The notes: generated from the letters alone by a model not told the origin. A DNA stretch of 45,431 nt, filler included, from Catajapyx aquilonaris (GCA_000934665.2; 2 parts of 2 records of this genome joined end to end with filler, not necessarily neighbours in it), one strand, 5' to 3'. Shown: positions 16,711-43,063, numbered from the whole stretch's first letter. Program-made: numbers and translations.

Positions 16711-16711
16711 C

Positions 16712-25397: not shown

Positions 25398-26456
25398 TGT
25401 AGAATATGTATATTGCGTACATGAATGTCAACAAACTTGGGAAATTGATCGCTATTCAAAGGCAAATTATTGCGTATTAACATAGTTTTGCTGTGTCTTT
25501 GCTGTTGAGAGCAGGAATTTTTCCACGTAAATGACAGCTGCTTAGCCCCAATTAATTAAATGCATTTCAGTGGCAATGTCACTTGCACTTGAGAATTGTT
25601 AATTACTGTATTATTGGTGTACATGTGTTGGAAAAACTTGGTTTTTGATTTTCATTTTTAGGACTTGTAATTATTTTTTTACTTTTTTACTATCATTTCT
25701 TTATTGCAATTATTTTTGGTCTTTTTTATTTTTATGTACAATTTTTTTTCGTTGAATATATTTGAAAAATATCAATGGTGGGCTTCCCACATGTAGTCGA
25801 ACACACTTGATCATGTGTGTAGTGCCTTAGCCTATTGTAGTAGACATAGTGCCCACAATTTTTGCAGATCATTATAATTAGTTTTTATTTTTTTTATTTT
25901 TACAAACTGTAGTACTAGTGTCTTTATTTTTATTTTTAAGATATTTAGTGCGATGAAACTGCATTTTCAAATTTATTTCCACTGGTTTTTGTAAATATTA
26001 CTTGCATAGTAAATTTTTTTAAAACTTTGGTTACAAACAAATAATGGACTTTAAATTTTGAGGACCTACTCTGGATCAAAAATGTTCATAGTACTTTGTT
26101 GCACATAGTTGTAGAGAACAGATCTGAACAGCATTGCATTATTTTCATTCTTGCTAAAGTCGGGCACCAACAAGTTGACTGGATCAATAATAATTCATTA
26201 TTTATTGAAAACCATTTGCTAGTACGAGGACTGACAAGTGAGTGCTTGGTCAACAACTTCAATTTTTTTTTCTGAAAGTTTTTGTCGCATTATTATTGGA
26301 CCTCATTATTGATTTTAATTACGAGGTGCCTTGTCCCACATGGTTGCACCTAGGTGTGCTTCACTCTCATCCATCATTTTCCTTGGACCTTATCAATTGC
26401 GTTCCATGATATAGCAACTGTTACTCTTATGATATAAAGGAAATGTCTCATTATTG

Positions 26457-26835
26457 AGTTCCCCTCCCTCTCCCTTCCCCAGATGGTATCTCCCCCTTTG
26501 CTTCTCCCATGACCTCGAGAGCTATGCCGGCGGTAGCTTAGTCTACTGGCAGGGTTTCCCAAGCCGGACAGGTCTTTGGGGTAGGAGAAATGCAAAAGGA
26601 GATGCCAGTCCTTCCTCTCTTCTTTTCCCTCTTAGTTTCTGTGTACATGTGCTGTTTCACTTACATTTTGCGAAGGTTTTGATTCCTTAGCCTGCCCGTA
26701 GCTTCAATGATGTAATGAAAAGCTGTCTGAATTTTTTCGTGTTGAAAGCTGCAACACACTGATTTCTTCTCATGCATTCTTCGTGCATTCTCAATCCATT
26801 GATCAATTGTTTCCTTTTTGCAGAGGACATGTCCA
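26457..26835. repeat. ~375-bp direct repeat copy 1 (RTE 5'UTR-like piece plus an unknown coding fragment)
   Basis: Near-identical to 28420-28792. Confidence 0.95.
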
Positions 26836-27049
26836 TGAAACAATTATTGTTTCAGCCCTCAGGCATTTGTCATTGTCTGGGCCGATCCTGCTTTTGAGGC
26901 ATTTCACCTGGCTCAAGGGACATAACCTTTGTATCAAGGTTCCTGATGTTTTTTTGCTATACATTCGGTGAGTCATATTGAACCAACTGATTTCCAGGCC
27001 TTTGATTCCTGATGAATCTATTGAGTTTGCATCTACATCTGCCTTGTTA

Positions 27050-28145
27050 CTCACCATAATGACTGTCTGATAAATTAACTCAAACATCTTTCCATCGACT
27101 TTAGCCATGTTTAGGTAGACATAATTCTGCTGATCTAGATTGCCAAATGGATCCTCGTATTTAAGTCGTTTCTTGTCAAAGCATCCAGTCTCACTTACTG
27201 GGACTTTGAAAGATGACAACTTTCATGGTGATAAAAGATATCACTTTTCCCTCCGTAGATGTCCACAGGTTCTGCTGAATGACTTTGTCGTTAACATTGC
27301 ACAGAAGTTGAGCACTGGTCATATTGACACGAAACATAGAGTCGTGTGTAGGGCATATCACATTTGCAACTGTCTTCTTGGAAAGACTTGCGTGACAAGT
27401 TAGTACATCGTCTAACTTATGGTTACATTTGTCTTTATTCCAGTTGGGGTCTGGGATCTTCTCCCATGTAAGTACCCCGTGATCCGCTGTGTAACAATAA
27501 ATCTGATTGTAGAGGTAGTGACCAGACAGTGGAATCAGCGTTTTTATACTCAGATCCCAATGGTCCATACTAACTGTTAAGTTAGACACCTTGATAATTC
27601 TGGATACTGTCGTGGATGTTCCTGTCCAGCCATGTTGTGCATGAATAATTTCTCCAATCTGGTTCCCAACATAACCATTTTCCCTCTTTTCCTCCAGTTC
27701 TCTGATATACTTTCTACAGTCCACTGCATCTACAGTGACTGGCTTGGTCTTAATGGTTTCTGTCTGAGCTCCGAAGAACCAGTAGGTATACTTGGAAGTG
27801 TACTCCACACCATGACAATAAGTCACGTTGATGTTCCATGCAGATGTATCGAGGGACCATAATCCGACTTGCACTTGACATGTGTTAAGCGTGGATGTCC
27901 ATTGGTCTTGGTAACCTCCAATCAGCTTCATCCAGGGCTGCTGCAAAATCGGGCTTATTGAGCCTATTTTTCCACTGCAGTTGGATAATGGGTGAATGTA
28001 CGGATTTTCAGTGTTTTTTGTGCATCTGTAGTGCTTGTGCATCAACTAGGATTGGAGATTTTTCTAATGAGAGGTATCCGTCAGTGAAGGTCACAATTGT
28101 TAGCCCGATCAACAGAGTCTGCATGACAATGTATAGAAAAAACAT
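27050..28145 (-). pseudogene. Endogenous viral element: mononegavirus (rhabdovirus-like) class III glycoprotein G, frameshifted and lacking a TM anchor
   Basis: Signal peptide MFFLYIVMQTLLIGLTIVTFTDG from ATG 28145; YCHGVEYTSKYTYWFFGAQTETIKTKPVTVDAVDC parallels vesiculovirus MCHASKWVTTCDFRWYGPKYITHSIRSFTPSVEQC (fusion loop 1); GWTGT (loop 2); CYTADHGVLTW. Confidence 0.8.
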
Positions 28146-28228
28146 GATTTATATTGAGCTGATACTCTTCGGAAGACACTTTATAATTGATATTAAGGTG
28201 GTTGGCCCAGCATTGCCTTTCAACCTCC

Positions 28229-28399
28229 AAGGATAGGGAAGGAAGGAAGCGGCTGTGGCCTATTATACGGAAGCGACCCCGGAATTATCCTAGAAAGACC
28301 GTGGAAAACCACGGTCAGGGTTGCCGGCCCCGGGATTCGAACCCAGGACCTCCCGATTAGCAGTCGGACGCCCTATCCACAATGCCAACCTGCTTCGGT
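28229..28399 (-). mobile_element. tRNA-derived SINE, same family as 25140-25397
   Basis: A box TGGCATTGTGG, B box GGTTCGAATCC, GGCCACAGCCGCTTCCTTCC 3' motif. Confidence 0.85.
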
Positions 28400-28419
28400 G
28401 ATCAGCATGGAACTGATTA

Positions 28420-28792
28420 AGTTCCCCTCCCTCTCCCTTCCCCCGGATGGTATCTCCCCCTTTGCTTCTCCCATGACCTCGAGAGCTATGCCGGCGGTAG
28501 CTTAGTCTACTGGCAGGGTTTCCCAAGCCGGACAGGTCTTTGGGGTAGGAGAAATGCAAAAGGAGATGCCAGTCCTTCCTCTCTTCTTTTCCCTCTTAGT
28601 TTCTGTGTACATGTGCTGTTTCACTTACATTTTGCGATGGTTTTGATTCCTTAGCCTGCTTCAATGATGTAATGAAAAGCTGTCTGAATTTTTGCGTGTT
28701 GAAAGCTGCAACACACTGATTTCTTCTCATGCATTCTTCGTGCATTCTCAATCCATTGATCGATGGCTTCGTTTTTACAGAGGACATGTCCA
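28420..28792. repeat. ~375-bp direct repeat copy 2
   Basis: Near-identical to 26457-26835. Confidence 0.95.
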
Positions 28793-29169
28793 GGGTGATG
28801 CGGGGTTGCCGAGCATTAAGGTTCTGTCGATCCCTGCTTCAACGGCTTTATCGTGCCTAATGCTGATGGGGAATTTCTGCGTAATGATGATCATTGTTGT
28901 CATCAGAGGGTTTGGGTCTTTCGAGGTCTCTTGATGCTCTTTTGATTGCCCGTAGATTGTTGGGTGGGGTTGTCTGCAGAACTTTTATTGGTTGGGCTGC
29001 AAAAGGGCAGCCACGGGTCATTGTCCTCAAGAGGTAATCTCTCTCATTGTCTGTACTGGATAAGCGTTTCTCCAGTGATAGTTTTTTTTAGATGGCAATT
29101 ATTGGAGTGTCAGAAAGTATCTTCATTGGCATTCCTTCTCTCTTATTAGCAGTAAACGCAAATCTTCAC

Positions 29170-29750
29170 AATATGTGTTTGTTGTTTATATTGCTTGTCA
29201 GTTGACACATTGCTGTTTGGAAGTCGTCGTCTGCAGGGTTTTACCCTCCTGGTCTCATGCTTGCAGTTTCTACTCCGAATTGGGCTTCAAAACTGACGTC
29301 CTGGTACCAAGACGTGTACTCCCCAAAACCTTCCTTGAATATCCAGCTATTTATCTCACTGATGTTTGTGCCAAGGGGTTTAAATGAGTTTTGGTGCAGT
29401 ATTCATCGAAAACACCGAGGTACAATGGTGCTTTCGAAAGGGTATATTTAATCATTCGCAAGATCATAAATAGTCGTGTTGGTTCATTGGATCAAGGTGG
29501 GTGTTGGTTGCCCCCAGCAGACAATTTCAGGTAGCCATCATTAATATACGGATGGCCTGTATCATCAATTTTTGTGTCTTTTGCATGAGTGGGATCCTGT
29601 TGGACTTGTCTCCTAATTCTTCAAAGGGCTGTAAAGTCATACAGTGAAATGCCAAGTATGGATTCATGTTGAATGGCATTTAAAGTCCTAACAATGATTT
29701 ACAAGTTATACCTGATAATCACTATAATAATACTGTAATGGTTGACCATG
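29170..29750 (-). pseudogene. Possible second, highly degraded rhabdovirus-like G N-terminus
   Basis: Hydrophobic leader; [37 protein letters not shown] aligns ungapped with the VSV-G fusion-loop-1 segment; multiple stops. Confidence 0.35.
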
Positions 29751-31197
29751 ATTATATCCCAAGTTGGGTCTAAATGGTCCCTGTGTGAGCCATGAAGGGA
29801 CAGTTTTTAATACAAAAGTATGATCCTACATATTGCACTCGCATCCATTAACCTCATTATATCAGAGTGCCATGTGGCTAATTGCCCTGCATTACCCACA
29901 ACCTGCTTTCTCTTGGAAATGCAGTCACTTTCGAAGACAAATTCGTGTGGTCCAAGCTGGTTATCACTCCCTTTTTAAGGAGTAAAAAGGTTGTCATGGA
30001 CCTTGTTCTTTTGTTGAGTCTGTTTATGCTCTCTTGGGTGAGTGAGATCGTGTTGGAATCTAGCCGCCTAATTCTTCTTGGGTCCTCTTCTTTTAATGGC
30101 AATACCATGCTTTTGTCTCAACTTTTTCATCTTGTTGAATTTATTATTTGCTCTGCTTTCTAATGTTCGCCTTTTTGTGTGGATGGTACTGAGTTCGCAT
30201 ATCTCAAAAGAGAGTTAGATCCACTCCAAGCAGTTGGAACTTGGGTTTTCCCACATCATGCTTGAAGAACTAAACTATCTGTATGCCACTGCTAGACACA
30301 CTTCGATCAGTTATTGGGCACCAGGTTTATTATTAGTAAGAAATGATGTGACTTGATATGCAGTTGAAGAACACTCGCTATACATTGTCACCCTTGGTTG
30401 CATTTGATTATTCTCTGGGTCCACAAATATTGTGCTGAAGAGGAAAGAGATACGTAAGGGTACATTCCTGTAGTACCCACCAGACAGCTTCTGGCCGAAA
30501 ACTTCTGGTGCAAATGCACTTCGTTGGGCGTTGTCTTCAGAGGCTTCTGGATATTAATGTCGGAAGCAAGTCTAGTTCTCATGTAAAGCGCAAGTTTTTC
30601 GTACACACTTTGTCCATGTAATATCGTTTCTGTGCATGTTCCATGGAAGTCCTTTTAAATGCGTTTGATATTATCTGCATAGTCGTAAGGTAATAATTAT
30701 TACAATAACAAGGTTACATTCACCTACATACGTACCCTAGAGTTGGACCCAAGAGGGTAGTCGGATGACTGGATGAGTTGGCTGTGTGTAGCTCAGTTTT
30801 ATGTTAGGTTTTATTGCTGGGGTCATCAGACATCATTCCCTTCTGTACTTGTGCACATGACCCCTGAAGCATTCGTGCTTTTGTCATTGCCAGCTTTACT
30901 GAGTGTTAATATTCAAATAATATTTTGGAAGGACTGTCTTAAATGAATTTAATGTTGTTTATTTACAAATGTCTTTAGAGAATAGTTACAACACAACGTC
31001 ACTAAAGTTAAGTTACCCAAGTTTCACAAGTTTGCTAATTAATTAGACGTTATCTGAGCATAATCGAGGGAAAGTGCCAGCCTTACAGGTTAATTTCGAG
31101 CGGCTACATTATCAATCGTGACTGCTAGCCCGCGCCCAGGAACTAATTAGTCCTCTTCAGAAGTTACTCTTACATACTGGACTGTGCATGACAATAA

Positions 31198-31280
31198 CAT
31201 CACGACATTTCCCTATAAGGAGTAGTCAACGATGAACAGAGACGCAGGTTAACGCCACATATGAACTAATTTAAAACTTG
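31198..31280 (-). mobile_element. 3'-terminal fragment of the RTE LINE family seen at 21281
   Basis: CATCACGACATTTCCCTATAA..GTAGTCA.CGATGA...ATATGAACTAA.TTAAAACTTG shared. Confidence 0.7.
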
Positions 31281-31542
31281 TCCGGCCTCCTTCCGCTCCG
31301 AAGGGTTAGTTTAATCCGCCCTCTGCATCCTCACCAGTGGCGTCCCTCTGATCATTACGTGGAGACCTCTTGACGCTCTTGTACTCCGACTACTCCCTCA
31401 CTGTGTTGCTCGAGTATCGCGGCTATAATGTACAACATATACTGATATATATCCCAATTGTTAGACGCTGAACTACCTCCCTTAGGGCCTAGGTATTCAA
31501 AGGGCGAGTAGTGCACAACCAACTATAACCCTAATCAGGAAA

Positions 31543-31863
31543 TTACTTTTTACGGTACATGAGGGCTTCGTAAAACTGTGTCTTCATCAGCCATGGCCCT
31601 GGTCCTTTCTGTCCATAGCTGGTGCATCCTCCCAGTTCCAGATGTATGCCCGCGTTTCTGACCCTCCGAGAGGTCCAGCGTTGGACCCTCCCCCACAGGA
31701 TCAGATGGACATCCACGGTGGTGTCGGTGCTTGCCTCTTTTGCCGTTATGATTACCTCATCTTGGTCGACGTGGACTTCCAGGTTGCTCGGACTGGCGCA
31801 GAAAATCTCTACGACCATGATCCGACCGTACTGTCTCCAACCGATGATACGAGTGCTGCCCAT
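31543..31863 (-). CDS. p23/CS (HSP20-like) domain-like ORF, copy 1
   Basis: GWRQYGRIMVVEIFC...LEVHVDQDEVII...VHLILWGRV...GIHLEL fits the CS-domain W.Q....V...+...V strand pattern; paralogous to 33928 and 38124. Confidence 0.5.
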   Translation of the reverse strand: MGSTRIIGWRQYGRIMVVEIFCASPSNLEVHVDQDEVIITAKEASTDTTVDVHLILWGRVQRWTSRRVRNAGIHLELGGCTSYGQKGPGPWLMKTQFYEALMYRKK

Positions 31864-31994
31864 CTTGGGGTTGTTGATTCTCCTCTGTTGTTCCTTTTAT
31901 GCAGTTCCTTTTGCTGAGGTGTGCCTCCGTGTTCAGTATAATGCATACCGTACCAAAAGTTAAGTTATCTGCACTGCTGTAAGATCAACATTAT

Positions 31995-32500
31995 CAACAA
32001 TTATGGAATGACACTCAAAGCTCAAAGTAGTCGATGTCTGATTTCAATGGTATAGTTAGTATTAACCTAACATGCGTTCTCATAAGCAACATTAGGAAGT
32101 CCAGCAGTAGTATAAGGGAATTTAATCAATCTTGGCTGGGATAACTAAGTACAAATTACTCGGCCATGAAGGCAGTATTTCTTTAAGGTTATGCGAGAAT
32201 TCCTCAGGTGTCAACCAACAGTCTACTGTGAAATCGGCCTTCCATTGATTTCTGAAATACATCGTCTAATTCATCAACCGCCTGCCTCCCTAGGCAGCAT
32301 GCGCAAGCCTATAGCTCATGCTAAGTGAATGCAAGCTTAGAGTTCCACGTTGTCTCATTCCCGTTGCGCTTGTACTGCCTGATAATGCTCGAAATGTACT
32401 CTCCTGCAAACTTGATTGTCTCCTTGGCCTATGATCAGACTTTTGATTCCTAAGTGGTGCTCGACTAAGAGCAGAAGGGCGATCGTGATCAAAGTTCATC
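31995..32500 (-). pseudogene. Baculovirus F / errantivirus Env-like fragment (mid F1)
   Basis: ELDDVFQKSMEGRF...LTPEEFSHNLKEILPSWP.NLYL.....IPLYY...VRLILTIPLK..YFEL. Confidence 0.7.
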
Positions 32501-32859
32501 CTTTCTGCCTGAGGCCCTCTAATCCACCCTTATGAGAGTACCAGACCCCGGCGCCTGTCTCTCAGGTTCCTGGCATCTGGAAAAGAAGGAAGGAGGAGGA
32601 TTGTTATGAGATGCTTGGAGGGCACCAAGATTATTTGACGACGAAGCAATGCATTCCTCGCACCAGCAAATATTAAGTCTTAATAAGCGATACTTTTATC
32701 CCTAAGAGCAAAATATTGGAGCAGGTGTCAGGTGTTACAAGAGAACCGTTGTATATAATACAACATGTGTATCAAATAGACCTTGCTGGGTGTCAGGGAG
32801 GTGTCAAGTATTTGGATTTATTGTTTCTGCAAGCCTTCTGCCTTATCTGATTCCTCCAG

Positions 32860-33300
32860 TTCACGTATGCGTTGATCACGCTGAGCTTTCTATTAGTCTG
32901 AAATGTTGAAAAACCATTTTTAGCTGGCTCTCTAGCCAGCGTGCATTAGACAAAATCCAAGAACGGTTATAAGATTGCCGGATCTTCGCTATTATTGGTG
33001 GGGTTATGCTTTTATCAAGAATATCTGCCCTGTCTATATTAAAACATTCTCAATTTTGAGTTACTCCTTTAGTATCCTGCAGGCCAACTGGATGCACTCA
33101 GTTCGTGATGTTGATCGCGTTGCATTTTAGTCCAAAGAATATTATATAATTTTCCTGCTACCGATCTTCAAGGTCGAATATCTTTTCCGGTAGTGACTTG
33201 ATTTGGGTGTCCATTTGGCTTACCATCTCCATCAGAGTCTGAATTTCGTCATCTGCTCTTTCAATGGGTGTGGAATCTTCATCAGTATATTTTTAGATCA
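32860..33300 (-). pseudogene. LINE ORF1 remnant (L1/CR1-type coiled-coil + RRM)
   Basis: IFDLEDR*QENYIIFFGL...IDRAD.L.K...IAK...WILSNARWL. Confidence 0.7.
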
Positions 33301-33927
33301 TGTGCCAGCGTTTGATGCAGGTTATCATTTTGAACTAGTTTCTAATGGTGTCGTTGCTTTGTGGTGATGCATAGTCCTGCTGCTGTGGAACTGGGTTTGG
33401 CCATCCATACCTTCCGTATTTGATTGAATGAGCCTGTCAAAATGTGGCCGTTGGGTTTTCACCCTACTTTAATGTCGTTTAAGGTTCGAATAATCTGGGT
33501 AAGGCTACATTAAAAATGCGATTTTAATATGACATATGTACAAAATGTTCTCTACGACTGTTGAGACAACGTTCACAACCCAGCCAAAAGTTTTGACAAT
33601 AATTTCTACAGGTCTTCTTGGACACCGGTATCAGCAGCGCCATCTGGTCTGGGTCGAATGGGACCTTCCCCAGTCTTCGCTTCGGTTTGTGCAGGCTGGA
33701 GTCTCCATCTTGGTGTACGTTGCGGTGTCTACCCCTTTTCATTCCCAAGGGTCTTCCGGACTGCTGTCATATCCGAGAGTGGCGGCCTCTTCTTGGTCCT
33801 GACCATGGTTCGTCTGTTCCGCTCTTTACAATAACAACACATCGTTACGAATCACTGCATAATATGACCCTCATGTTACAGGCTAGGCACTCAAAAGGAC
33901 AAATAGTGTAACAACAATAACTATTCC

Positions 33928-34317
33928 CTAATCAGGGATATGACTCCTTACTAGACCATGGGGTGGTCTACCCCGAGGCGCGTCCTCCTCTTCTTCCTGT
34001 TCCACCAAGAGCCTGGCGAACCATAGCTCATAAATACGGCCCTGAAATAACGCCAACCTGGACACTCCCCTTCTCTCTGTCTTCTCCCAACGTGTGGATG
34101 GTGCCAGTACCCACTTCGGATCTTCTCCGAAAACGTTGATCAGTTGTCTCCAAGGCCTTACGGTTCCCGTCTCCAGCTCAAGGTGTAGACCCCTGTGACT
34201 GGTCATCAGCCTCGTCCACTCCCGGATGGGTCCCCAGGACTGGTGGTTTATCCTCATGCATTCCACAAATTTTGCTTTATTTATCTTCGAGACTTGATCT
34301 GTCCCACCTTTACGCAC
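33928..34317 (-). CDS. p23/CS domain-like ORF, copy 2
   Basis: WGPIREWTRLMTSHRGLHLELETGTVRPWRQLINVFGEDPKWVLAPSTRWE parallels p23 ..WPRLTKE...NWL.VDF..W. Confidence 0.55.
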   Translation of the reverse strand: MRKGGTDQVSKINKAKFVECMRINHQSWGPIREWTRLMTSHRGLHLELETGTVRPWRQLINVFGEDPKWVLAPSTRWEKTERRGVSRLALFQGRIYELWFARLLVEQEEEEDAPRGRPPHGLVRSHIPD

Positions 34318-34599
34318 GCCCTTTGTATAGAAATATTCCCATGATAGCTTCCCCTACACACTACTATAGTGTATAGGATCGTCATATTTATGGACCGCCC
34401 ATATAAGGCCAGCGTTAGTGTCCCATCGTTTAACTGTCAATTTCTGGGACTTGTGTCTGGTGGAGCTCCCCATTTCTTCCTTTCACTACTCCTTCCCACT
34501 CGCTGCAAACATTTTGCATGTGCGCTGATACTCTTCTCTGGCCCAAGCTCTATAAGTAGGTACCCATGTTTGCCAATCATTTTTTAACCATGTGGCAAT

Positions 34600-35600
34600 A
34601 TCGTGGCGAACGTACTGTTCGCAACCACGACACCGCTATAGATACATCCTCTCCCAATCATCGTCATGGTTCGAGTTGTGTTCTCCATCTTGACCTCGTC
34701 CTTCAGTCACTGGAGCCGGATCTGCAGGGGTCCAGAGCCAGAGAAGGCACCATGGGACGAGTCTTGTTGTTCTTCAACATCTCTACAGGGGCAGCCCCCC
34801 CGGGTCAAAAATGTCCCTTGCATCAAGGGAATAGGTGATCAAGAATGAGTACCATTTTTTTCCTCGTACAGCCACCCGGTAGTTTGCAATGTTCTGGTCC
34901 ATTCTGTCTACACATCCCACGTTTTGATTGTACATTATTTTGAACCAGTCAGCTGAGTCGGGGATAATATATGTTATGCTGAATCAGGGTGGTAATCTAT
35001 ATTGCTGACTCAGGGATTGCAACATATCCGCTCCCTATGTGGAAAGTTGTGTGTCCGGTCTGACAACCGACACTGAAATGAGAGTTGCATTGGGTATCTT
35101 ACATTGAAGACCCAATGGTCATAATCATTGACGGGAGCAAAGTTGGGTTGCGGATTAACTACTATGGTTTTTATACACTTCACTCCCTCGATATGCGCTA
35201 TTGTTGTGATCACTGAGGGCTGCAATTTATTCCTGAACGTGCACGATTTCTTGATTTTTCTGCGTCAAGCCTACTCTTAGTTTGTGATTCAACCGCCTGA
35301 TATCACTTTCTGTGCTAACTCCAAAGATCCCTTTGATAACTTTTCCGCCAAAGTATATCAGTCCTCTTTTCTGCCTAGATGCGTCTCTTACTTCTGTTAA
35401 ACGTTCGAGTGTTTTACTTTTACGGTTAGTGTCGTCTAAGTATTTTATCTCGGCTTGTATGCCGCGTATAGCTCTGATGATGTCTTCCCAATCAGCCTGC
35501 CACACATCCTCTTGCTCCGGATCTCTGATGAATTCTTGAGGGCCACGAAGAGTTCTCCTAGGTCCAGTTCACCATCGGTACAGGAGGAAGACAATACCGT
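34600..35600 (-). pseudogene. Baculovirus F / errantivirus Env-like gene remnant with furin site and fusion peptide
   Basis: RQKR|GLIYFGGKVIKGIFGVSTESDI (RxKR-GLI..GG...K.LFG..D..D motif, ~35376 downwards); HWVFNV...LSFQC downstream; internal deletions. Confidence 0.85.
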
Positions 35601-35689
35601 GGATCGTCACTTCCGTCATAAGGGAGCTATTTGGTTCACAGGAAGTGTAGCACTGCATCTTGCTCTATATCTTCCTGCTTTGAAATACT

Positions 35690-36100
35690 CAATCGAGTCA
35701 CGGAGCCGTATATCAACAAAATATTTATTTCATGGCTCCTTTCACTTCCGCCGCTGTTAACTTGCCGAATTGGTATTAATTATAGTGTTTTTCAAAGTGG
35801 AACTCCAAGGGACAACAGGTTCGGTAGTTTAGTGATTAATTGAGTTAAAATTCAATTTAACCGAGTAGGGGGAAGGATCTACGTGGTTATTCCACCTTGG
35901 CTCAACGCATCTATTGCATGCATTACTTGGTCATGCAGATCGGCAATCACTCCGAAATTGATTTCAAAGGCCCGGAACATTGTGTCCGTATCTGCAATCG
36001 CAAATACCTGAGTTCAAACTCGACTTATTTGTTCACTGTTTTCCTGGGATAATTGTATCATGATGGTTGTCATAATATGCATTGTTTCTAAGAGATTTAA
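35690..36100 (-). pseudogene. F/Env-like fragment (mid F1)
   Basis: VMHAIDALSQGGITT*ILPPTRLN*ILTQLITKLP fits the G.I...I.PP..L...L..I...LP motif. Confidence 0.75.
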
Positions 36101-36550
36101 TAGGGTTCGTTTTCTTTCGTTTTTCCCGCCATTTGTTCAATTATTATTGTCACCTGTTCTTCTCTAATATGTAACGTACCCTTTTGTGTGTTCACCAAGT
36201 GTCCAATTCAATTGTTCAGTGATCTTCGACGTCTTTTTCAGCAGATAAGCCAAGGGAGAACCTCGATGTTGTGTTTACAAAAATTTTAATTTTTAATCCG
36301 CTCTTTTTTCTCCACTCTTCCATTAAAGTGAACGTATCTTTCAACTCATTAAACTTTCGTCTTAACCCTCTGGTTTCATTCATTATTCAGCTCTTTTCGC
36401 TTCGAATAGAAAATCTACTCTTCCGAACCCAAGCTTAGCCATGCGTTAATCCCGTTTTTCTAAGTTATCACATGTAATTTTTAGAATTTATGTAGCTCTC
36501 TTCAGAAGGTGTTGATGAGCTTCCGGATTAAACGATTATCCAAGAAAATG

Positions 36551-36905
36551 AGTGAACAAATAAGTCGAGTTCTCAACTCAGATGTTCGCCATTGCAAATA
36601 CGGTCACATTGTTCAGAGCTTTTGAAATCAATTCAGGAGTCATCCCTGATTGGTGATTAAAAAGTGGTGTAAGCCATAGCCTACATGTGAGGTGTCAAGG
36701 CGAAATGTTCACTATTTTTCCGCCTACGCAGCCGACTGAAAATTTAACTAAACTTATCACAAAATTACCTATAATCAATTGTCTTTTGCAGTACCTTTAA
36801 AAAAAATACCTCGTCTCCTATTATTACCAGTCTGGTAAGCTAACGGCGGGAGCAGTGGTGAAAGGAGCTATGAGGGTTTCTGTTGATGTATCGCCCCGTA
36901 ACTGA
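36551..36905 (+). pseudogene. Inverted, diverged homologue of the 35690-36037 F/Env fragment
   Basis: AGTGAACAAATAAGTCGAGTT...TTTGAAATCAATT...GTGAAAGGAGC shared; TQMFAIANTVTLFRAFEINSGV vs TQVFAIADTDTMFRAFEINFGV. Confidence 0.8.
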
Positions 36906-37392
36906 ACCCCTCGATGTGGGCGCCTGTTCGTGGTGAGGGGACCACCCTACTGGGCATTCCTTCGTGTTTCTCTGGTAGGGTCCTGAACGCCCACCCGCAA
37001 TTGAAATATTTATTTCGCCGACTTTTGCGGTGTTGTTATTGGCTATTTGGCGGAGGAGAATATATTGTTGATGTTCTCTTTCGTGGGCGTTGAGTTGGCT
37101 TATTATCTGTCGCTTGCTATTAGCGAGATGGTTTTGTCAGTTGACGTATTTCATTGTTGTTTTGATGGTTTATCTTTATTCAATAATTGAAGTAATTGAA
37201 AGTCACTAATTATTTATTAGTGACTTTGTAACATGAACTCTTACTGCGATTAGTCTTTAGTGTCTTTATTATTTTTCCTCTGTAGTGCATGAGGGACTTG
37301 GATGTTGATTATTACGGTGTTTGTTGGTGGGGGTTTCTTTTATGAGGTGCCGGGGGGCTAGGGCCTATTGGCGGGGTCGACCCTTGAAGTTC

Positions 37393-38041
37393 CTATGTAA
37401 GTGCAAGTGTTTGAGATATGGGGCTAGAGAGAGACTTGTGACTGGCCATGATCTCTGGAGCGACTTTGTCATGTGCAATCATCCAGTTGATGACAATGCT
37501 CTCAATTTTAGGATGCACCCCTTTCGATGCTCTCTGGTAGTTTGCGAAAGACCGAGTTTGATGCCTCGCGATTGCAAATTCAGCCGTGATATAGATATGT
37601 TGTTTCTGTTGAGGCATTGGGTTTCGCTTTTGGGATGAAGCAATTTCACGTAGCATCTGTCGGTGGCAGGCTTGGTCATGAGGTATTTCCACGCTTCCGT
37701 CATGAGCTCCACTTCCTCTCTGAGATGAAGAATGAGGAGGATCTCAGGAAAAGTTATGTATAGATACTGGTCGATGACCAAGATATGCAACATTTCCGAT
37801 CCGTGGAGCACAGTGCAGACGGTGTTGAGCCCATGGGTCATTTGGCGCTGACGGTTCTGATAATGATGTACATCAGTTCTCGTCGAAGAATGTAATTGGC
37901 GGACATGAAGTTTGTTGGCGGAATCCATCCCTGGTATACCAGGGACCCTTTCCAGCAATTCTCTCTCTCCACTACTCCGAGGGTGACTGCAAATGTGTCG
38001 ATCCTTGACTGTACCCACTGATCGTACCTTCGGGCATTCAC
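37393..38041 (-). pseudogene. Endogenous viral element: chuvirus (Jingchuvirales)-type nucleoprotein, C-terminal portion with two frameshifts
   Basis: YDQWVQSRIDTFAVTLG...W...FMSANYILRREL / EMLHILVIDQYLYITFPEILL..LR....MTEAWKYL...DRCYVKLL.PK..T..LNRNN / A.FAIA....SFANY. Confidence 0.8.
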
Positions 38042-38123
38042 ATTTTAAACTAAGGTCAGGAGAATAAAATAGCGGACTTGGATGTTCTATGATTTATGGT
38101 CTTGTTCCACTTCTTGATTGCTT

Positions 38124-38400
38124 TTAACACCCAGTCAGGCTCCTCCCCAGGGTGCTCACCAGACTCGGCCAACGTTGGTCGCTCTCGGTCTGGAACTCCA
38201 GATGTAGGCCGTCCCTATTCGTCATCAGGCTGATCCACATCCTTACACTTCCCCAGAATTTAAACCGGATGTCTACTGTTGCTTTGGTTCCCTGCTCTCT
38301 AACTTTGATGGTTAAAGTTGAGCCTTCCAGTTGGATGTCTGGGCTGAAACAGAAGACTTCCAGCACCAGGTCCTCTCGCCGCCAGTGACTACGTTTGATT
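38124..38400 (-). CDS. p23/CS domain-like ORF, copy 3
   Basis: HWRREDLVLEVFCFSPDIQLEGSTLTIKV...VDIRFKFWGSVRMWISLMTNRDGLHLEFQTESDQRWPSLV. Confidence 0.55.
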
Positions 38401-39089
38401 GGTCCAAAGTGACCGCCTATCTAGTGAAACAACATGTATGTTTTATTCTCCTTGTAGTATACATGCGCACCGTATATTGAAAGCTTTATTTACAGAAGAA
38501 ACGAGAAAAATTAAGAGCGAGAGAAACTTAACGTTTTCATATTACTTTATCTAAACAATGTAACAACTTAACTCACTTAACCAAAACAAAACACCACAAA
38601 ATAATGTTACATGAGAAATACCAATAGTCTACCTTCATCTCAAACAACAACACGTTGAGGCAGCCTCGCCCTAGACAATACAGTCTGGATCTCACCCGTC
38701 CGATTACGACATTGGAAGTGACTGAATTCGACGGCCCCCCCAGCGTCTCCAGCCTCTTCCATTGAGAGTGGTCCTTCCTGCAGTCCTATCGTGGTCTCAG
38801 GCTTCGCTATTTCCGCTTCAGATTTTTTCGGCTCTTCTTCCCTTAGTGTTGGTTGCTGGCCTTCTGGTGTCTCCCACATTCTTGGCTTGTTGTCCGTGGT
38901 AGATCCTCCTCCTGTCTCCAGCTTCCTCCACGTTGGGTATAATTCTTTCCTTAACAGCGGTTGACGTCCTTTTTCGTTTTGTCAGTGGCATTCTCCTATC
39001 TCAACGGCTTCAGACATCTGGAAGGTGGTTTCTTCTCACCTCCAGTTCGGTCTTCAGATATTATTCTTTCTAGACGGATCGTGGCTGAT

Positions 39090-39300
39090 TTTTGAAATAC
39101 GTCATCCAATTCGTGCCCTTGTACTATCGCAGCATGTGCAAGCCTGAAGCTCATGCTGAGTGAATGCAAGCTTAATAATCAACGTCGTTCCAGTCTTGCT
39201 GTGCCGGCTTGGCATGATAGTGGTCAAAGTTTGTTTTGGAACACACTGAGCGTATTAACTAAATGTCTAATGGACATCGTAATGATGGATCGAGTAGTAG
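39090..39300 (-). pseudogene. F/Env-like fragment homologous to 32250-32400
   Basis: Shared GCAGCATG.GCAAGCCT..AGCTCATGCT.AGTGAATGCAAGCTTA block and LSLHSLSMS.RLAHAA...ELDDVFQKS. Confidence 0.7.
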
Positions 39301-39399
39301 TATCTCTTCCTGGTCAACCTTGTCTGATATCCGATCACTTGAAAGCAATGCACATTTGCATGCTGGTTAGATATGCATGTTTCAAGAGAGAACAACATT

Positions 39400-39505
39400 C
39401 GGCTCTGGCAGGTTATCTCCGACGATGCCAGCCCATACGTTCATGGAGAATCAATGTTGATGGCGTGTAACTACGTATATAGGCATGTGGATTGTCGTGA
39501 TTGGG
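39400..39505 (-). pseudogene. Tc1/mariner (DUF4817-type) transposase fragment
   Basis: DNPHA...RHQH*FSMNVWAGIVGDNL. Confidence 0.75.
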
Positions 39506-41169
39506 GCCTGTAAATATCGTCTGGATGTACAATATCCACCACATTTTTTCTCGTATTAATTATAAAGGGCTCCCTTGATTGAATTTACTGATATCGCATT
39601 TACAACGCCCTATTCAAATAACACAATTTTTTCCATGTCCATTGGTCCAATCAAAATTCTCTGTGTATGCTGTAGCCATTTTGGTCGTTTTTGTTATTGT
39701 CGAGTTTCTGAGTGGGGTAGGAGTTGATCTCCAGCAGTCTTCTTAGCTGCCTTACAACTGCTGCCTTCCGGTTGGGATCGTCCCTTTGGGCAGCAAGCTC
39801 ATGTTGTATGTATATGAACTGTGTAATATCTATAGACCTAAGAGGAGCACCTAACTTGATGTCCTGACATCCAGGCATCAGGCAAGGTTTCCTGCCGAAT
39901 GATGGTCTGCTCGTCTTAGTGTATGGTAACATCTGACAGTAATATTTGCATCATGTTGCTGACAAGTATTTCGTTAACCCAGTCTTCATACAAGTTGGAA
40001 TGGTGGGCGGGTGGAGGCTGAGCAGGTTGTGAGTCTGGACAGGTGTTTGTCGTATGAGTCATCATGATCTCACCGCTGACACCCTCCCCTCTTGGTCGTT
40101 CCATTGGTCTGCTAAGTCGCCTCGGATGGGGATGACCCGCTCTAGCGGTTCTTCGGCTCCCTGTTGGTCAAAGGAAGAAATTTGTCCATACACCCGCGTC
40201 GCAGCATGTCCAACAAGACAGCTATGAATGAGCATTCACTCACTTTTTCGTCCTGTTTTGACCGGACTGTATGTACCATTGGAAGGAACATGCGCACTGG
40301 TTCTTCTATTGCCCCTACGTTACACATGTCAAGGGAAGATAGTACATCAAGTCCGTTCGAGGCGAAAAAGGTTCACCATCATTAAGCACGAAAAAATACA
40401 ACAGCTCACCTTCAACTCGACTAGGTCTGCTGATAATTATCTTGATCATTATGTTAAGTACAGATCAGATTGTCAAATGCGCAAGGGTCATCAGCACCGA
40501 TTTCGAAGGGAGCTTCTAGTTCAGTGATTAGATTTTCACCTCTAGCGGACTGATGCAACCTCTTAGAGCGCTTTAAAGTAATGGGGGAAATTGTGTACAA
40601 CCCATCTATTATTAAACATTGACACTATAGGATAGTACAGCCCCTTCTGTTATTAAAGACATTTATATATCAAGAATATATCAATAAATTTAACCCCAGG
40701 TTTGTACTGTATTAACCATTGGTACACCCTGTCCTCCTGTGGTTCTGCTTCTGTCGCACTTGCGAGTACGGGAGGGTTCGGACGAGACAATGTGCTTAGG
40801 CTTGATTGAAACTATCAATGGTTAACATGACCAAGACAATGCTTTAATGACGACAACTCTATACAACAACGATATTAAGTTCTCATGAGTATAACATTAA
40901 TAAAGACCCTTTTCATCACAGGGGGGAATAGTCGCCATAATTACCTATTCAGTACTCCGTAGGGTGATGTCTCCTTTGTGGTTCTGGGTCACTCACTTAC
41001 TCACTGACTCTCCTGGCATTAGAAGAGTCCAGCATTTATATACTGATCAATGAGCTGACCTCAGCTAGCTGTTGTTTTCTTTATTACTAGCTGAGGGGCT
41101 CTTACACATGTTTTGAGCTGTTACGGATGTCTCAATATCTGATAAGGAGTGCTTACTGGTGGTGAGTCA

Positions 41170-41672
41170 GGCTGACATATATTGTGCTGATTCAGCGATG
41201 GCAACAATATTGCATTGCTCCAGTAGAAGTGGTGTTAGGGCACAGATGTGTTTAAAGGTACAAGAATGGTGTAGTGCATCAAGTAAAGGTGCAAGACACT
41301 TGTCAATATATACCTATCAAGTCAGTAGTGCGGAGAATGATGAAGGTTCCTGGATTTTTAGAGGCAATGAATAGTTTTAAGAGAAACAGATTGACAGACA
41401 CTGGGGAATTTTATACTGTTCATGGTTGTCGGTATTATAAAACGCACAGCATAATCCAAGGGAATGACCATGTTTACCTCTTAGAATTTTACATTGATGA
41501 TATTGAAACTGTTAACCCTCTCGGATCACATGCCGGCATCCATAAACTAGGGATGGTATACTTTACCTTCAAAGACTTACCACCACAGTTCAATTCGCAT
41601 CTGAGATATCATTTTATTGTTAACATACATTCTGCAGTTGATGTTGGAAGTATGGGTATGAGCCTATTTTGA
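41170..41672 (+). pseudogene. CMC/EnSpm-like DNA transposase fragment
   Basis: LEFYIDDIETVNPLGSHAGIHKLGMVYFTFKDLPPQFNSHL. Confidence 0.8.
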
Positions 41673-43063
41673 ACCCAATATGACCATTACTGTTGAGAAA
41701 ACGTTTACAACCCAGCCGAAAGTCTTGACAATGAATTAGTCTTCTTGTTGTCACCGGTCAGCGGCGCCATATATTCTGGGTCGAGTTGGACCTTCCCAGC
41801 CTTTGCTCTGTTCAGCTGGGCTTCCTTCCTTGGCTCTTCTCCTTGGCTGGATAATGTAGCTTCGGGTTAATTTATGGTGTGTCCCCACTTCCACTGCTTG
41901 AGGTCGCCTTCCTCTACCAGGCTGCCTCGTCCCTTCTGACGGTGGGCGTCTCAGCCCGATCTTCACAATATTCTGTTACACTTGACCTGGGATTGGCTCC
42001 AATGGTTTCTCAAAGAAGGACGATGGATCAGTAACAAAAGTTTATCAACAAAAAATAAAGCAATTACATACCCATGATGTTCACTGTTCACTCACTCCGA
42101 CGGACCAAAATAAAAAGATGCTGCTCTGGGGCGGTCACCCCCTTTTATACCCTCGGGTTGCGTACCAGGAAGTTAGGCACGTACGGCCAACGTCTCTGTT
42201 TTGGTGACAATGTCCTCACTGCCCACGTCACTGCTGACCATACATTTTATTATCTTAATAGTCAGGCAGCCTCCAGGTAAACATCCCCGAGTTCAAACCA
42301 TATCGAGGATTCCCTGCTGTATTGTCGTAACTCACTTGGGCAAAATTTTCCAGGGGAAACGATTGAATTATTACTCGGCATCAATATAATATATTGTGGC
42401 GTGAATGTATTCCTCTGCAACATCATAATATTATGTGCCCTTGGCAGTAAGTATGACAATGTATGTCAATTAGAAGCTGCAGAATTGGACACCATTTTTG
42501 TGGAGTTACGACATTTGGACTGCTACATGGTTTCCATATGGTGCATGCTATATTGTCGTATGTGCAAATGATGAGAGGAGAGCAAGTAAAAGTCATAGAC
42601 AAGACAGTAGTTGTAACCAGATGATGAATTCTTGGTTCGGTTGAAGTTAAGGTTTTGACTGCAGTATAATGTGTCTGCCTCGGAGTTGAACTTTTACTCT
42701 CACATGAATGTCATTATTCATTCACTCATTAAGGCATTATTTTTTCATTTACTAGAAGATTACTCATCATACTGATTGTACAACATACTGCACGTATCTG
42801 TCCATTTATATATTTCTTTTTTAAATTTCCGTTACCACACACTTACAAAACCATTTGAATAATAAATTATTGTTCTGAATAAGCTTGACATGATCTTTTA
42901 CCACTATAACCAAAGAACAGCCACAGCTAAAATATAAATACAAAACATTATTTCTCACAATAAAATTATTCAGCCAGTACTGTCATCAACTATGCGTATT
43001 TAACCCAAGATAGTTGACGTTAAAGTTTTCCATACCCAAACCTCCAGAAAAGATAAACACAAA

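What the first reader, a model, noticed from the sequence alone, without database searches (positions are those of the whole stretch)
31543..39300. Recurrent F/Env -> p23/CS-domain module: trace of an undescribed enveloped element carrying a co-chaperone-like gene
Seen: three divergent intronless paralogues (31543-31863, 33928-34317, 38124-38400) share WGx(V/I)xxWxxxxxxxxG(L/I)HLE; two continue with W..L. On the minus strand each lies downstream of an F/Env fragment (31995-32500; 34600-35600; 39090-39300). Copies 1 and 2 also share downstream sequence (31489-31540 vs 33883-33937). Established: W.Q...V at the start and WxxL...W...W at the end characterise p23/CS domains; p23 is an Hsp90 co-chaperone. 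Inference: the conserved order across diverged copies points to a family of errantivirus-like retroelements or F-encoding DNA viruses with an accessory p23-like gene after env. I know of no described element with this arrangement.
Basis: partly seen in the sequence, partly recalled or inferred. Interest (0 to 1): 0.85.

Follow-up and report, generated by a model that had tools for sequence, protein, structure and literature searches.

The report
Chaperone-fold gene relics, no Env link
Three decayed copies of a small gene, whose protein is predicted to fold like the p23/CS family of chaperone helpers, sit in a one-directional graveyard of virus and transposon fragments, but they are not attached to viral envelope genes as first thought.

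Summary
The three minus-strand paralogues are real (tblastn E 1e-8 to 1e-10 within the window). Their predicted structure is an HSP20-like beta-sandwich, closest to CS domains (Ncb5or, Sgt1, Shq1, p23). No sequence method links them to any known family.

The claimed recurrent "F/Env then p23" order does not hold.
- The "Env" piece before copy 1 is a rhabdo-like L polymerase fragment (Pfam Mononeg_RNA_pol E 2.9e-12), followed by a 140-nt non-coding core.
- The piece before copy 3 is only a second copy of that core.
- Only copy 2 has an F-like fragment upstream. It is sub-threshold, lies 720-760 nt away, and a piggyBac fragment sits in between.
- No gag-pol or LTRs frame the copies.

The repeated unit is core, spacer, CS-fold ORF, then a conserved 3' flank. 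The ORFs diverged under protein-level constraint: codon positions 1+2 are 59% identical and position 3 is 32%. Close relatives lie outside the window.

All 8 coding remnants between 26.7 and 39.3 kb lie on the minus strand, including rhabdovirus G-like and PB1-like pieces. This is the layout of a one-strand EVE/transposon archive.

The origin of the family (small mobile unit, host family or viral gene) stays open. Expression could not be tested.

The parts
31543..31863 (-). CS-fold ORF copy 1: ATG to TAA, 106 aa, uninterrupted. It is shorter than copy 2 in the tail (internal gaps relative to copy 2).
   Evidence: model pLDDT 73.3, pTM 0.65
31489..31542 (-). Conserved 3' flank of copy 1, directly after the stop. 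It aligns with 33870-33927.
32246..32393 (-). Shared non-coding 'core', copy 1, about 380 nt upstream of the ATG of ORF copy 1
   Evidence: 80% identity over 138 nt to 39086-39228. Exact 26-mer (one degenerate letter) found twice, 0 expected by chance. Not L-like beyond shuffle level.
32391..32614 (-). Fragment of a rhabdo-like (Mononegavirales) L polymerase, motifs B-C including GDNQ. It is broken by an in-frame stop and a frame change, and it ends where the core begins.
   Evidence: Mononeg_RNA_pol E 2.9e-12, 45.6 bits, profile 667-717. 62-76% identity to P0001-P0007. Every tblastn hit of these and of the viral loci to the window at E 1e-5 or better lies within 32391-32570. Upstream piece in another frame.
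33870..33927 (-). Conserved 3' flank of copy 2
   Evidence: Summed contig depth 232-305 at 33933-33946 against about 35 for single copy.
33928..34473 (-). CS-fold ORF copy 2: ATG at 34473, frame change near 34357, stop at 33928. It has the longest tail, with an acidic run.
34786..34983 (-). piggyBac-type transposase fragment between the F-like piece and copy 2
   Evidence: DDE_Tnp_1_7 E 5e-6, 26.5 bits
35194..35568 (-). F-type (Baculo_F-like) fusion-protein fragment: basic cleavage-like site followed by a glycine-rich hydrophobic stretch. About 90-110 aa only.
   Evidence: Baculo_F E 0.0012, 17.9 bits, profile 109-173. E 0.0024, profile 114-199 in the read-through. Below the cut-off of 24.1. 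No homologue.
38059..38420 (-). CS-fold ORF copy 3: first codon ATA, 98 codons open, then the tail continues in another frame to 38059
   Evidence: model pLDDT 63.4
39086..39228 (-). Shared non-coding 'core', copy 2, about 665 nt upstream of ORF copy 3.
   Evidence: No Pfam hit in 3 frames. L-likeness not above shuffles.
27194..28045 (-). Context: open 284-aa ORF with a rhabdovirus glycoprotein fusion domain
   Evidence: Rhabdo_glycop_FD E 6e-7, 30.6 bits, above the cut-off of 22
29172..29387 (-). Context: orthomyxovirus PB1-like polymerase fragment (sub-threshold)
   Evidence: Flu_PB1 E 4.8e-5, 22.2 bits against cut-off 26.4, profile 464-534. E 0.007 for the single ORF piece.

Best explanation
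The three ORFs are dead or dying members of a low-copy repeat unit of about 0.9-1.2 kb. The unit has four parts: a conserved 140-nt non-coding core, a variable spacer, a stand-alone intronless ORF of about 106-180 codons, and a conserved 3' flank of about 58 nt.

The ORF encodes a single CS/HSP20-type beta-sandwich. Known proteins with this fold (p23, Sgt1, Shq1, small heat-shock proteins) act as non-enzymatic adaptors that bind Hsp90 or hold client proteins. I take that to be what an intact member does. This is inferred from the fold only.

I read the unit as a small copied-and-pasted (mobile or retroposed) sequence, for two reasons. Its non-coding ends are kept better than its coding part. 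Each window copy also has a closer relative outside the window than inside it.

The copies lie in a 17-kb block in which every recognisable coding remnant points the same way. These remnants are L polymerase, G-like, PB1-like, F-like and piggyBac pieces. That is the layout of a one-strand archive of virus and transposon fragments (piRNA-cluster-like).

The neighbouring virus pieces are other tenants of this archive, not parts of one element. The apparent Env linkage is a misreading of an L-polymerase fragment and of the unit's own upstream core.

Shown: paralogy, fold prediction, identity of the neighbours, strand bias, extra copies elsewhere.
Inferred: mobility, chaperone-adaptor function, archive function.
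For: PARALOGY AND CONSERVED POSITIONS
-.

FOLD
- Copy 1 model: pLDDT 73.3, pTM 0.65, 8 strands.
- Foldseek pdb ranks 1-15 are all CS domains. Best E 9e-3, TM about 0.6.
- VIA search of 48,161 chains: Ncb5or CS Z 10.5, Sgt1 CS Z 9.8, sHSP Z 9.2, p23 Z 8.5. The first 35 of 50 rows are all CS or alpha-crystallin domains.
- Copy 3 model (pLDDT 63.4) gives the same list, top Z 8.5.

PROTEIN-LEVEL CONSTRAINT
- Copy 1 vs copy 3: amino acids 26/73 identical, codon positions 1+2 59% identical, position 3 32%.
- All three keep 98-141 open codons.

UNIT ANATOMY
- The core is 80% identical over 138 nt, while the ORFs are 43-57% identical.
- The 3' flank of copies 1 and 2 aligns for about 58 nt.
- The start position is shared: ATG, ATG, ATA.

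COPIES ELSEWHERE (the window's own single-copy contigs have depth 31-40)
- An 875-nt contig is about 87% like 31511-31780.
- One contig joins 33862-33963-like sequence to 38167-like sequence.
- Summed depth is 232-305 at 33933-33946, 102 at 33985-34024, and 114 in bin 38642-39108.

NEIGHBOURS
- Mononeg_RNA_pol at 32409-32561.
- Baculo_F-like only at 35194-35568.
- piggyBac fragment at 34786-34983.

STRAND BIAS
- 8 of 8 coding remnants between 26.7 and 39.3 kb are on the minus strand.
- One search scanned 76 plus-strand pieces (40-74 aa) in 26.2-41.1 kb, and the longer ones outside 31486-39000. Neither gave a hit at E 0.01.
- AT skew is negative in 18 of 18 one-kb windows from 25 to 43 kb, and mixed before that.
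Against: - No ends, target-site duplications, poly(A) tail, transposase or reverse transcriptase define the unit as mobile.
- Three copies within 7 kb on one strand is also what tandem duplication of a host gene gives.
- The extra copies seen could lie just outside the window. No census is possible because no genome is held.
- Copy 2 shows no core upstream.
- The fold rests on a 3-sequence alignment. Z values of 8-10 are only moderately above the tool's stated background of 7-8.
- Pfam CS and HSP20 models do not match.
- A profile search of 1.84 billion proteins found nothing, so no independent family supports the gene.
- No small-RNA data exist for the archive idea.
Confidence: 0.4

Rival explanations
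1. Host gene family. A lineage-specific, fast-evolving tandem cluster of small intronless co-chaperone-like (CS-fold) genes, with a conserved upstream regulatory element (the core) and a conserved 3' UTR. Transposon and virus fragments have invaded the cluster, and most local members have become pseudogenes.
For: - The three copies share one strand and lie 2.1-4.2 kb apart.
- Divergence shows protein-level constraint.
- Non-coding stretches upstream and downstream are conserved, as promoters and UTRs can be.
- Copy 1 is still an intact ATG-to-stop ORF.
- Unchecked notes of other agents describe a divergent tandem HSP70 family and a J-less SEC63 copy in the same genome, so private chaperone expansions may be a habit of this lineage.
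Against: - Each window copy has a closer relative outside the window than inside it.
- 2 of 3 copies are broken.
- No homologue in 1.84 billion representative proteins, and none in the near-length word search.
- No poly(A) signal within about 150 nt after the stop in copies 1 and 2.
- The surrounding 17 kb holds only virus and transposon debris.
Confidence: 0.28
2. Viral gene. The ORF is a gene of an RNA virus (rhabdo-like or other) that was endogenised several times from diverged relatives. It would be a virus-encoded p23-like helper, with the short conserved flanks being its untranslated regions.
For: - A compact unit with about 30 nt of partly similar sequence before the start and about 58 nt after the stop.
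- Copy 1 lies 530 nt downstream of a rhabdo-like L fragment on the same strand.
- G-like and PB1-like fragments lie on the same strand nearby.
- Synonymous sites are saturated while amino acids are conserved, which fits divergence in replicating lineages.
- Hsp90 is needed for maturation of mononegavirus L polymerases (abstracts of PMC9266396 and PMC6315898), so such a gene would make sense.
- CS-domain proteins exist in giant viruses.
Against: - The CS profile finds nothing in the ORFs of 14 L-bearing viral or metagenome loci (best E 0.3).
- It finds nothing in 1.84 billion proteins.
- L-likeness stops exactly where the unit's core begins, and the second core has no L next to it. The L and CS neighbourhood is therefore seen once, not twice.
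- The core differs between copies without third-position bias, as neutral host DNA does.
- BFVD shows no RNA-virus match.
Confidence: 0.14
3. An errantivirus-like retroelement or F-encoding DNA virus carries an accessory p23-like gene after env, and three diverged copies preserve that order.
For: - One F-like fragment (35194-35568) lies upstream of copy 2 on the same strand.
- The CS-type fold is supported.
Against: - 2 of the 3 claimed Env pieces are not Env.
- The F-like piece is sub-threshold. It covers only profile positions 109-199 of 609, and a piggyBac fragment separates it from copy 2.
- No gag, pol, integrase or LTR was found around any copy.
Confidence: 0.05
4. No real gene. The similar ORFs are chance open frames in an old non-coding repeat, and the predicted fold is an artefact of a thin alignment.
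For: - No sequence homologue anywhere.
- The Atlas recognition scores are low, and its second query gave no usable hit.
- Model confidence is only moderate.
Against: - The opposite-strand frames are less conserved: E 1e-5 against 1e-10.
- Codon positions 1+2 are far better kept than position 3.
- Three frames of 98-141 codons are open where DNA identity is 43-57%.
- Two models give the same fold family in two different search programs.
Confidence: 0.04

Closest known systems
CS domains of Hsp90 co-chaperones and relatives (p23/Sba1, Sgt1, Shq1, Ncb5or CS; Pfam PF04969)
   Same: - Predicted 8-strand beta-sandwich of about 90 residues. Z 8.5-10.5 with 85-96 residues aligned for the copy 1 model, and Z 6.5-8.5 for the copy 3 model.
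- A tryptophan in the first strand and one closing the domain are invariant in the three copies.
- Copy 2 has a long tail with an acidic run after the domain.
   Different: - No sequence-level match: the Pfam CS model is silent at E up to 1, and a PDB profile search gives 0 hits at E up to 10.
- Identity in structural alignments is 6-16%.
- It is a stand-alone, intronless, low-copy repeat in a transposon and virus graveyard, not a conserved housekeeping gene.
- Hsp90 binding is untested.
Small heat-shock protein alpha-crystallin domains (Pfam PF00011)
   Same: Same fold clan. Z 8-9.2. The only weak language-model leads were HSP20 clusters, at 0.80-0.83.
   Different: - No PF00011 match.
- CS domains rank first in both structure searches.
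One-strand piRNA clusters that hold non-retroviral EVEs and transposon fragments (flamenco of Drosophila; the flamenco-like cluster of Aedes aegypti, PMC7161354, abstract seen)
   Same: - All recognisable coding remnants point one way over about 17 kb.
- RNA-virus fragments (L, G-like, PB1-like) are mixed with transposon fragments.
- There is a strand-wide AT-skew block.
   Different: No small-RNA or transcript evidence could be obtained. Cluster status is inferred from layout alone.
Errantivirus Env / baculovirus F proteins (Pfam PF12259)
   Same: One fragment (35194-35568) has the cleavage-site-plus-fusion-peptide region of the profile.
   Different: It is below the curated cut-off, covers only about 90 of 609 profile positions, occurs once, has no gag-pol or LTR partner, and does not adjoin a CS copy.
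CS-domain and sHSP proteins encoded by giant viruses and cyanophages (BFVD hits: Hokovirus SGS-domain protein, Hyperionvirus and ChoanoV1 CS-domain proteins, phage sHSPs)
   Same: They show that viruses can carry this fold. TM 0.57-0.63 to the model.
   Different: All are large DNA viruses or phages, with E 0.014 or worse. Nothing links this window to such viruses.

Membership tests
CS domain (PF04969; p23/Sgt1/Shq1 type) | Match to the family HMM at or above the curated score | tested here: not met
   0 of 3 copies match CS at E up to 1. The profile of the 3 copies finds no PDB chain at E up to 10.
CS domain (PF04969; p23/Sgt1/Shq1 type) | Compact 7-8-strand HSP20-like beta-sandwich | tested here: met
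   Two models with 8 strands each. CS domains are the top structural matches in Foldseek and VIA. The models rest on a 3-sequence alignment with pLDDT 73 and 63.
CS domain (PF04969; p23/Sgt1/Shq1 type) | Binding to Hsp90 or an Hsp90 client | not testable with these tools
   No host Hsp90 sequence is held. No complex job was run.
p23 / PTGES3 / Sba1 subfamily | Specific kinship with p23 rather than other CS domains, and a disordered acidic tail after the domain | tested here: inconclusive
   - p23 scores Z 8.5, below Ncb5or (Z 10.5) and Sgt1 (Z 9.8).
- Copy 2 has a 76-residue tail with an acidic run, copy 3 has part of it in another frame, and copy 1 lacks most of it.
Small heat-shock proteins (PF00011) | Match to the alpha-crystallin domain HMM | tested here: not met
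   No PF00011 hit at E up to 1. The fold-level match alone does not separate it from CS.
Env-bearing LTR retroelement (errantivirus-like) | F-type env ORF directly upstream of the accessory gene in each copy | tested here: not met
   1 of 3 copies has an F-like piece upstream, sub-threshold and 720-760 nt away with a piggyBac fragment between. The other two places hold an L fragment plus core, and the core alone.
Env-bearing LTR retroelement (errantivirus-like) | gag-pol (reverse transcriptase, integrase, protease) and flanking LTRs | tested here: not met
   - No such Pfam family was found in the scanned ORF pieces of 22.9-45.4 kb. The pieces were all of 75 aa or more, and most of 40-74 aa apart from both strands beyond about 41-43 kb and the plus strand below 26.2 kb.
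- The only hint in the window is a weak zf-RVT hit at 16940-17242.
- No direct repeats flank the copies in 30-41 kb.
Non-retroviral EVE from a Mononegavirales L gene | L polymerase HMM above cut-off with catalytic motif C (GDNQ) | tested here: met
   For 32391-32614 only: Mononeg_RNA_pol 45.6 bits against cut-off 27, with GDNQ present, and 62-76% identity to L-like proteins P0001-P0007. For 39086-39228 the feature is not met.
One-strand piRNA cluster | Transposon and virus remnants in one orientation | tested here: met
   8 of 8 coding remnants between 26.7 and 39.3 kb are on the minus strand. No plus-strand hit among the pieces scanned. AT skew as.
One-strand piRNA cluster | Production of strand-biased piRNAs | not testable with these tools
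   No RNA holder was listed for the stretch.

The most novel reading that the evidence does not exclude
The CS-fold ORF is the cargo of an invader rather than of the host. It would be either a gene of an arthropod RNA virus related to the L fragment beside copy 1, or the only gene of a tiny undescribed mobile unit. It would act as a private p23-like adaptor that recruits host Hsp90 to fold the invader's own polymerase or another client. The three copies would then be a fossil series of diverged lineages of that invader, stored in a one-strand defence archive.
Probability: 0.15. Interest if true: 0.75.

Novelty: new member of a known kind. Interest (0 to 1): 0.35.

Why it matters
If the family is real, it adds an orphan branch to the CS/HSP20 fold. 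This branch is invisible to sequence search and travels as a small repeat unit.

If it proves to belong to a virus or transposon, it would be a rare case of an invader bringing its own Hsp90-type co-chaperone. Mononegavirus polymerases are known Hsp90 clients (abstracts of PMC9266396 and PMC6315898), so the idea could be tested directly.

As it stands, the main value is corrective. There is no evidence here for a new enveloped element. The block is better described as a one-strand archive holding L, G-like, PB1-like and F-like virus fragments.

Tried and rejected
- WHOLE GENOME: none is held, so there could be no census of copies, flanks or synteny.
- EXPRESSION: no RNA holder was listed. The three runs laid are contig sets, two on record as DNA (X1, X2) and one of unrecorded kind (X5), so they say nothing on transcripts.
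- SEQUENCE HOMOLOGY OF THE CS ORFS
  - Pfam: no CS or HSP20 hit.
  - Near-length word search: none.
  - HMMER profile against 1.84 billion representatives: 0 at E 0.001.
  - PDB sequences: 0 at E 10.
  - Atlas: only weak HSP20 leads at 0.80-0.83 for copy 1, and no usable hit for copy 3.
  - CS profile against ORFs of L001-L014: best E 0.3.
- F-LIKE FRAGMENT: no longer homologue was found.
- AN IDEA I HELD AND DROPPED: that the shared 140-nt core is L motif D, so that both copy 1 and copy 3 follow an L fragment.
  - The closest L relatives align only to 32391-32570.
  - The region after motif C scores inside the shuffle range for 7 of 7 L proteins on both units.
  - The one suggestive alignment (score 46) is reached by 4 of 200 shuffles.
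- CORE: no Rfam family, and no third copy in the window.
- TERMINI: a search for colinear homology beyond the 58-nt 3' flank and upstream of the ATG gave only patchy, unconvincing similarity.
- METAGENOME SCAN for closer L-bearing contigs: 2 loci, one a duplicate of L012.
- dN/dS: not computed, because synonymous sites are saturated. Identity by codon position is given instead.
- LITERATURE: search for EVE + CS domain + p23 found 65 papers holding 2 of the 3 terms. In the 10 listed, 'endogenous viral element' occurs 0 times. This is a thin basis for 'not in print'.

Full report
WHAT WAS CLAIMED
It claimed that each lies downstream of an F/Env fragment, read the ORFs as p23/CS-like, and proposed an undescribed enveloped element with a co-chaperone-like accessory gene after env.

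THE PARALOGUES ARE REAL
- Stop-to-stop ORFs of 117, 141 and 98 codons lie at 31543-31896, 33928-34353 and 38124-38420 on the minus strand.
- Translated searches inside the window give E 1.5e-10 (copy 3 vs 1) and 2.6e-8 (copy 3 vs 2). The opposite-strand frames score worse, at 1e-5.
- The trimmed alignment has nine invariant columns: W, WG, W, G, HLE, W.
- Copy 1 runs from an ATG at 31863 to a stop at 31543 (106 aa).
- Copy 3 has ATA at the matching first codon. After about 90 codons its tail continues in another frame to 38059, where it aligns with the tail of copy 2.
- Copy 1 vs 3, aligned by codon: 26 of 73 residues are identical. Codon positions 1+2 are 59% identical and position 3 only 32%. 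The alignment is protein-guided, which favours positions 1+2 somewhat.
- I read this as old divergence under selection on the protein, not as neutral decay of a local duplication.

THE FOLD
- An AlphaFold model of copy 1 on the three-sequence alignment has mean pLDDT 73.3, pTM 0.65 and eight strands.
- Foldseek against the PDB gives no match at E 0.001. Ranks 1-15 are all CS domains (Shq1, Ncb5or, Sgt1, p23, Sba1), with best E 9e-3 and TM about 0.6. Small heat-shock proteins follow.
- An independent all-against-representatives search gives Ncb5or CS Z 10.5 (96 residues aligned), Sgt1 CS Z 9.8, a plant sHSP Z 9.2 and p23 Z 8.5. The first 35 of 50 rows are all CS or alpha-crystallin domains.
- A model of copy 3 is weaker (pLDDT 63.4) but has the same strand order and the same top matches, with Z 8.5 for Ncb5or CS. 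It uses the same alignment, so it is not independent evidence.
- The tool warns that best Z values of 7-8 are common background. The homogeneity of the list carries the argument more than the scores do.
- Sequence methods are silent:
  - Pfam: no CS or HSP20 hit at E up to 1.
  - PDB profile search: nothing at E up to 10.
  - HMMER profile against 1.84 billion representative proteins: nothing at E 0.001.
  - Word search: nothing.
  - The language-model atlas gave only weak HSP20-clan leads for copy 1 (0.80-0.83) and nothing for copy 3.
- So an HSP20-like, CS-type fold is supported at model level. Membership of the CS family by sequence is not.

THE NEIGHBOURS ARE NOT ENV
Before copy 1:
- Reading 32358-32717 through its stops with X gives Pfam Mononeg_RNA_pol at E 2.9e-12, 45.6 bits (cut-off 27). 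The match covers profile positions 667-717, which hold polymerase motifs B and C with GDNQ.
- Relatives are L-like proteins at 62-76% identity. Named rhabdo-like polymerases match at about 50%.
- Every tblastn hit to the window at E 1e-5 or better, from these proteins and from the ORFs of the first 13 viral loci, lies within 32391-32570. The few others are short chance-level hits at E 0.002-0.008.
- A short upstream piece in another frame extends the match to about 32614.

The shared core:
- Directly after this fragment begins a 140-nt stretch (32246-32393) that is 80% identical to 39086-39228.
- I first took this core for L motif D. Shuffle controls reject that.
  - For 7 of 7 L proteins the region after motif C scores within the shuffle range on both units.
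  - The one suggestive alignment is reached by 4 of 200 shuffles.
- The differences between the two cores show no third-position bias.
- No Pfam family matches 38999-39372 in any of three frames.

The F-like piece:
- Only 35194-35568 resembles an F protein: Baculo_F E 0.0012, 17.9 bits against a cut-off of 24.1, profile positions 109-199 of 609. It has a basic cleavage-like site and a glycine-rich hydrophobic stretch. No longer homologue was found.
- A piggyBac transposase fragment (34786-34983) lies between it and copy 2.

Other retroelement features:
- No gag, reverse transcriptase, integrase or protease family appears in the ORF pieces scanned between 22.9 and 45.4 kb.
- No direct repeats frame the copies.
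- The recurrent Env-then-p23 order is therefore not there.

WHAT THE REPEATED UNIT LOOKS LIKE
- The unit is core, spacer (about 380 nt in unit 1 and 665 nt in unit 3, not alignable), ORF, then 3' flank.
- The two non-coding ends are better kept than the ORFs. The core is 80% identical, and the flank aligns over about 58 nt. The ORFs are 43-57% identical at the DNA level.
- No core was found before copy 2.

Contigs of DNA runs of the same organism were laid at 80% likeness.
- The ORFs lie at single-copy depth. The window's own contigs have depth 31-40.
- Relatives exist outside the window:
  - an 875-nt contig is about 87% like 31511-31780;
  - one contig joins 33862-33963-like sequence to 38167-like sequence;
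  - summed depth is 232-305 over the 3' flank of copy 2 and 102 over its tail;
  - summed depth is 114 over the spacer of unit 3.
- Each window copy thus has a closer relative elsewhere than its neighbours here, and 3' ends are more numerous than ORF bodies.
- Where those relatives lie is unknown, because no genome is held.

THE SURROUNDINGS
Between 26.7 and 39.3 kb, all 8 coding remnants I could name are on the minus strand:
- a 284-aa open ORF with a rhabdovirus glycoprotein fusion domain (E 6e-7, above cut-off);
- a PB1-like fragment (E 4.8e-5, sub-threshold);
- the L fragment;
- the piggyBac fragment;
- the F-like fragment;
- the three CS-fold ORFs.

The three ORFs are not independent of one another. 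One search scanned 76 plus-strand pieces (40-74 aa) in 26.2-41.1 kb, and the longer ones outside 31486-39000. Neither gave a hit at E 0.01. AT skew is negative in 18 of 18 one-kb windows from 25 to 43 kb and mixed before.

This is the layout described for one-strand piRNA clusters that store transposon and non-retroviral virus fragments (abstracts of PMC7161354, 10.1101/396382 and 10.1101/438911, seen in the listing). An unchecked note of another agent reports a similar one-way array elsewhere in this genome. No small-RNA or RNA data could be had.

BEST READING AND RIVALS
- Best reading (0.40). The ORFs belong to a low-copy, copied-and-pasted unit that encodes a CS-fold adaptor-type protein. 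The copies here are dead tenants of a one-strand archive, and the virus pieces beside them are other tenants.
- Host gene family (0.28). A host tandem family with a conserved promoter and 3' UTR is a serious rival. It fits the same-strand clustering and, if other agents' notes are right, a lineage with private chaperone expansions.
- Viral gene (0.14). This is attractive because mononegavirus L polymerases depend on Hsp90 (abstracts of PMC9266396 and PMC6315898), and giant viruses carry CS-domain genes. However, the L neighbourhood occurs once, and the profile finds nothing in L-bearing viral contigs.

COMPARISON WITH WHAT IS KNOWN
- By fold the ORF sits with p23, Sgt1, Shq1 and Ncb5or CS domains and next to small heat-shock proteins. 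By sequence it belongs to none.
- p23-specific kinship is not shown. p23 ranks below Ncb5or and Sgt1.
- The block resembles flamenco-like clusters in layout only.

VERDICT
What remains is an orphan CS-fold ORF family of unknown origin in a virus and transposon archive. It is of moderate interest, and a genome census and small-RNA data would settle most of the open questions.

PAPERS
For all papers cited I saw only the search listing and the start of the abstract. No supplements were consulted.

Noticed in passing
window 27194-28045 (-), flanked by 26472-26835 and 28436-28792: An uninterrupted 284-aa ORF with a rhabdovirus glycoprotein fusion domain (E 6e-7, above Pfam's cut-off) lies between two direct repeats. 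Each repeat is about 360 nt, they are 96-98% identical, and they lie 1964 nt apart. The repeats belong to a high-copy family (summed depth 3,000-25,000 against about 35). This could be an LTR-like frame around a G-like gene, or two copies of a SINE. Not resolved.
   Followed up: partly
window 29172-29387 (-): Orthomyxovirus PB1-like polymerase fragment: Flu_PB1 E 4.8e-5, 22.2 bits, below the cut-off of 26.4. If real, it is a second kind of RNA-virus polymerase remnant, on the same strand as the L fragment.
   Followed up: partly
window 32391-32614 (-): Rhabdo-like L polymerase remnant with motifs B and C, 62-76% identical to short L-like proteins from JGI and Logan sources and about 50% to named rhabdo-like viruses. 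It ends exactly where the 140-nt core of the CS unit begins. This may be a recombination joint between viral cDNA and a repeat.
   Followed up: yes
window 28322-28393 (-) and 27901-28834: A tRNA-like sequence (Rfam tRNA, 34.1 bits) sits inside the most repeated stretch of the region, with summed contig depth up to about 179,000 against about 35 for single copy. It is probably a tRNA-derived SINE.
   Followed up: no
window 35939-36061 and 36527-36650: Inverted repeat with arms of 76 and 45 nt (79-84% complementary) around about 500 nt. It is MITE-like or hairpin-like and lies between the F-like piece and copy 3.
   Followed up: no
window 38643-38981 (-): A 113-aa open frame rich in E, P, G and T lies in the spacer between the core and copy 3. 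The stretch has about three copies' worth of depth, and other contigs show small indels there. No family hit.
   Followed up: no
window 25001-43000: AT skew is negative in all 18 one-kb windows of this block and mixed in the 25 kb before it. This marks a strand-asymmetric domain that coincides with the one-way remnants.
   Followed up: partly
window 16389-17242: Tc3-type transposase HTH fragment on the plus strand (E 1.3e-8) and a weak zf-RVT hit on the minus strand (E 0.001), outside the one-way block.
   Followed up: no
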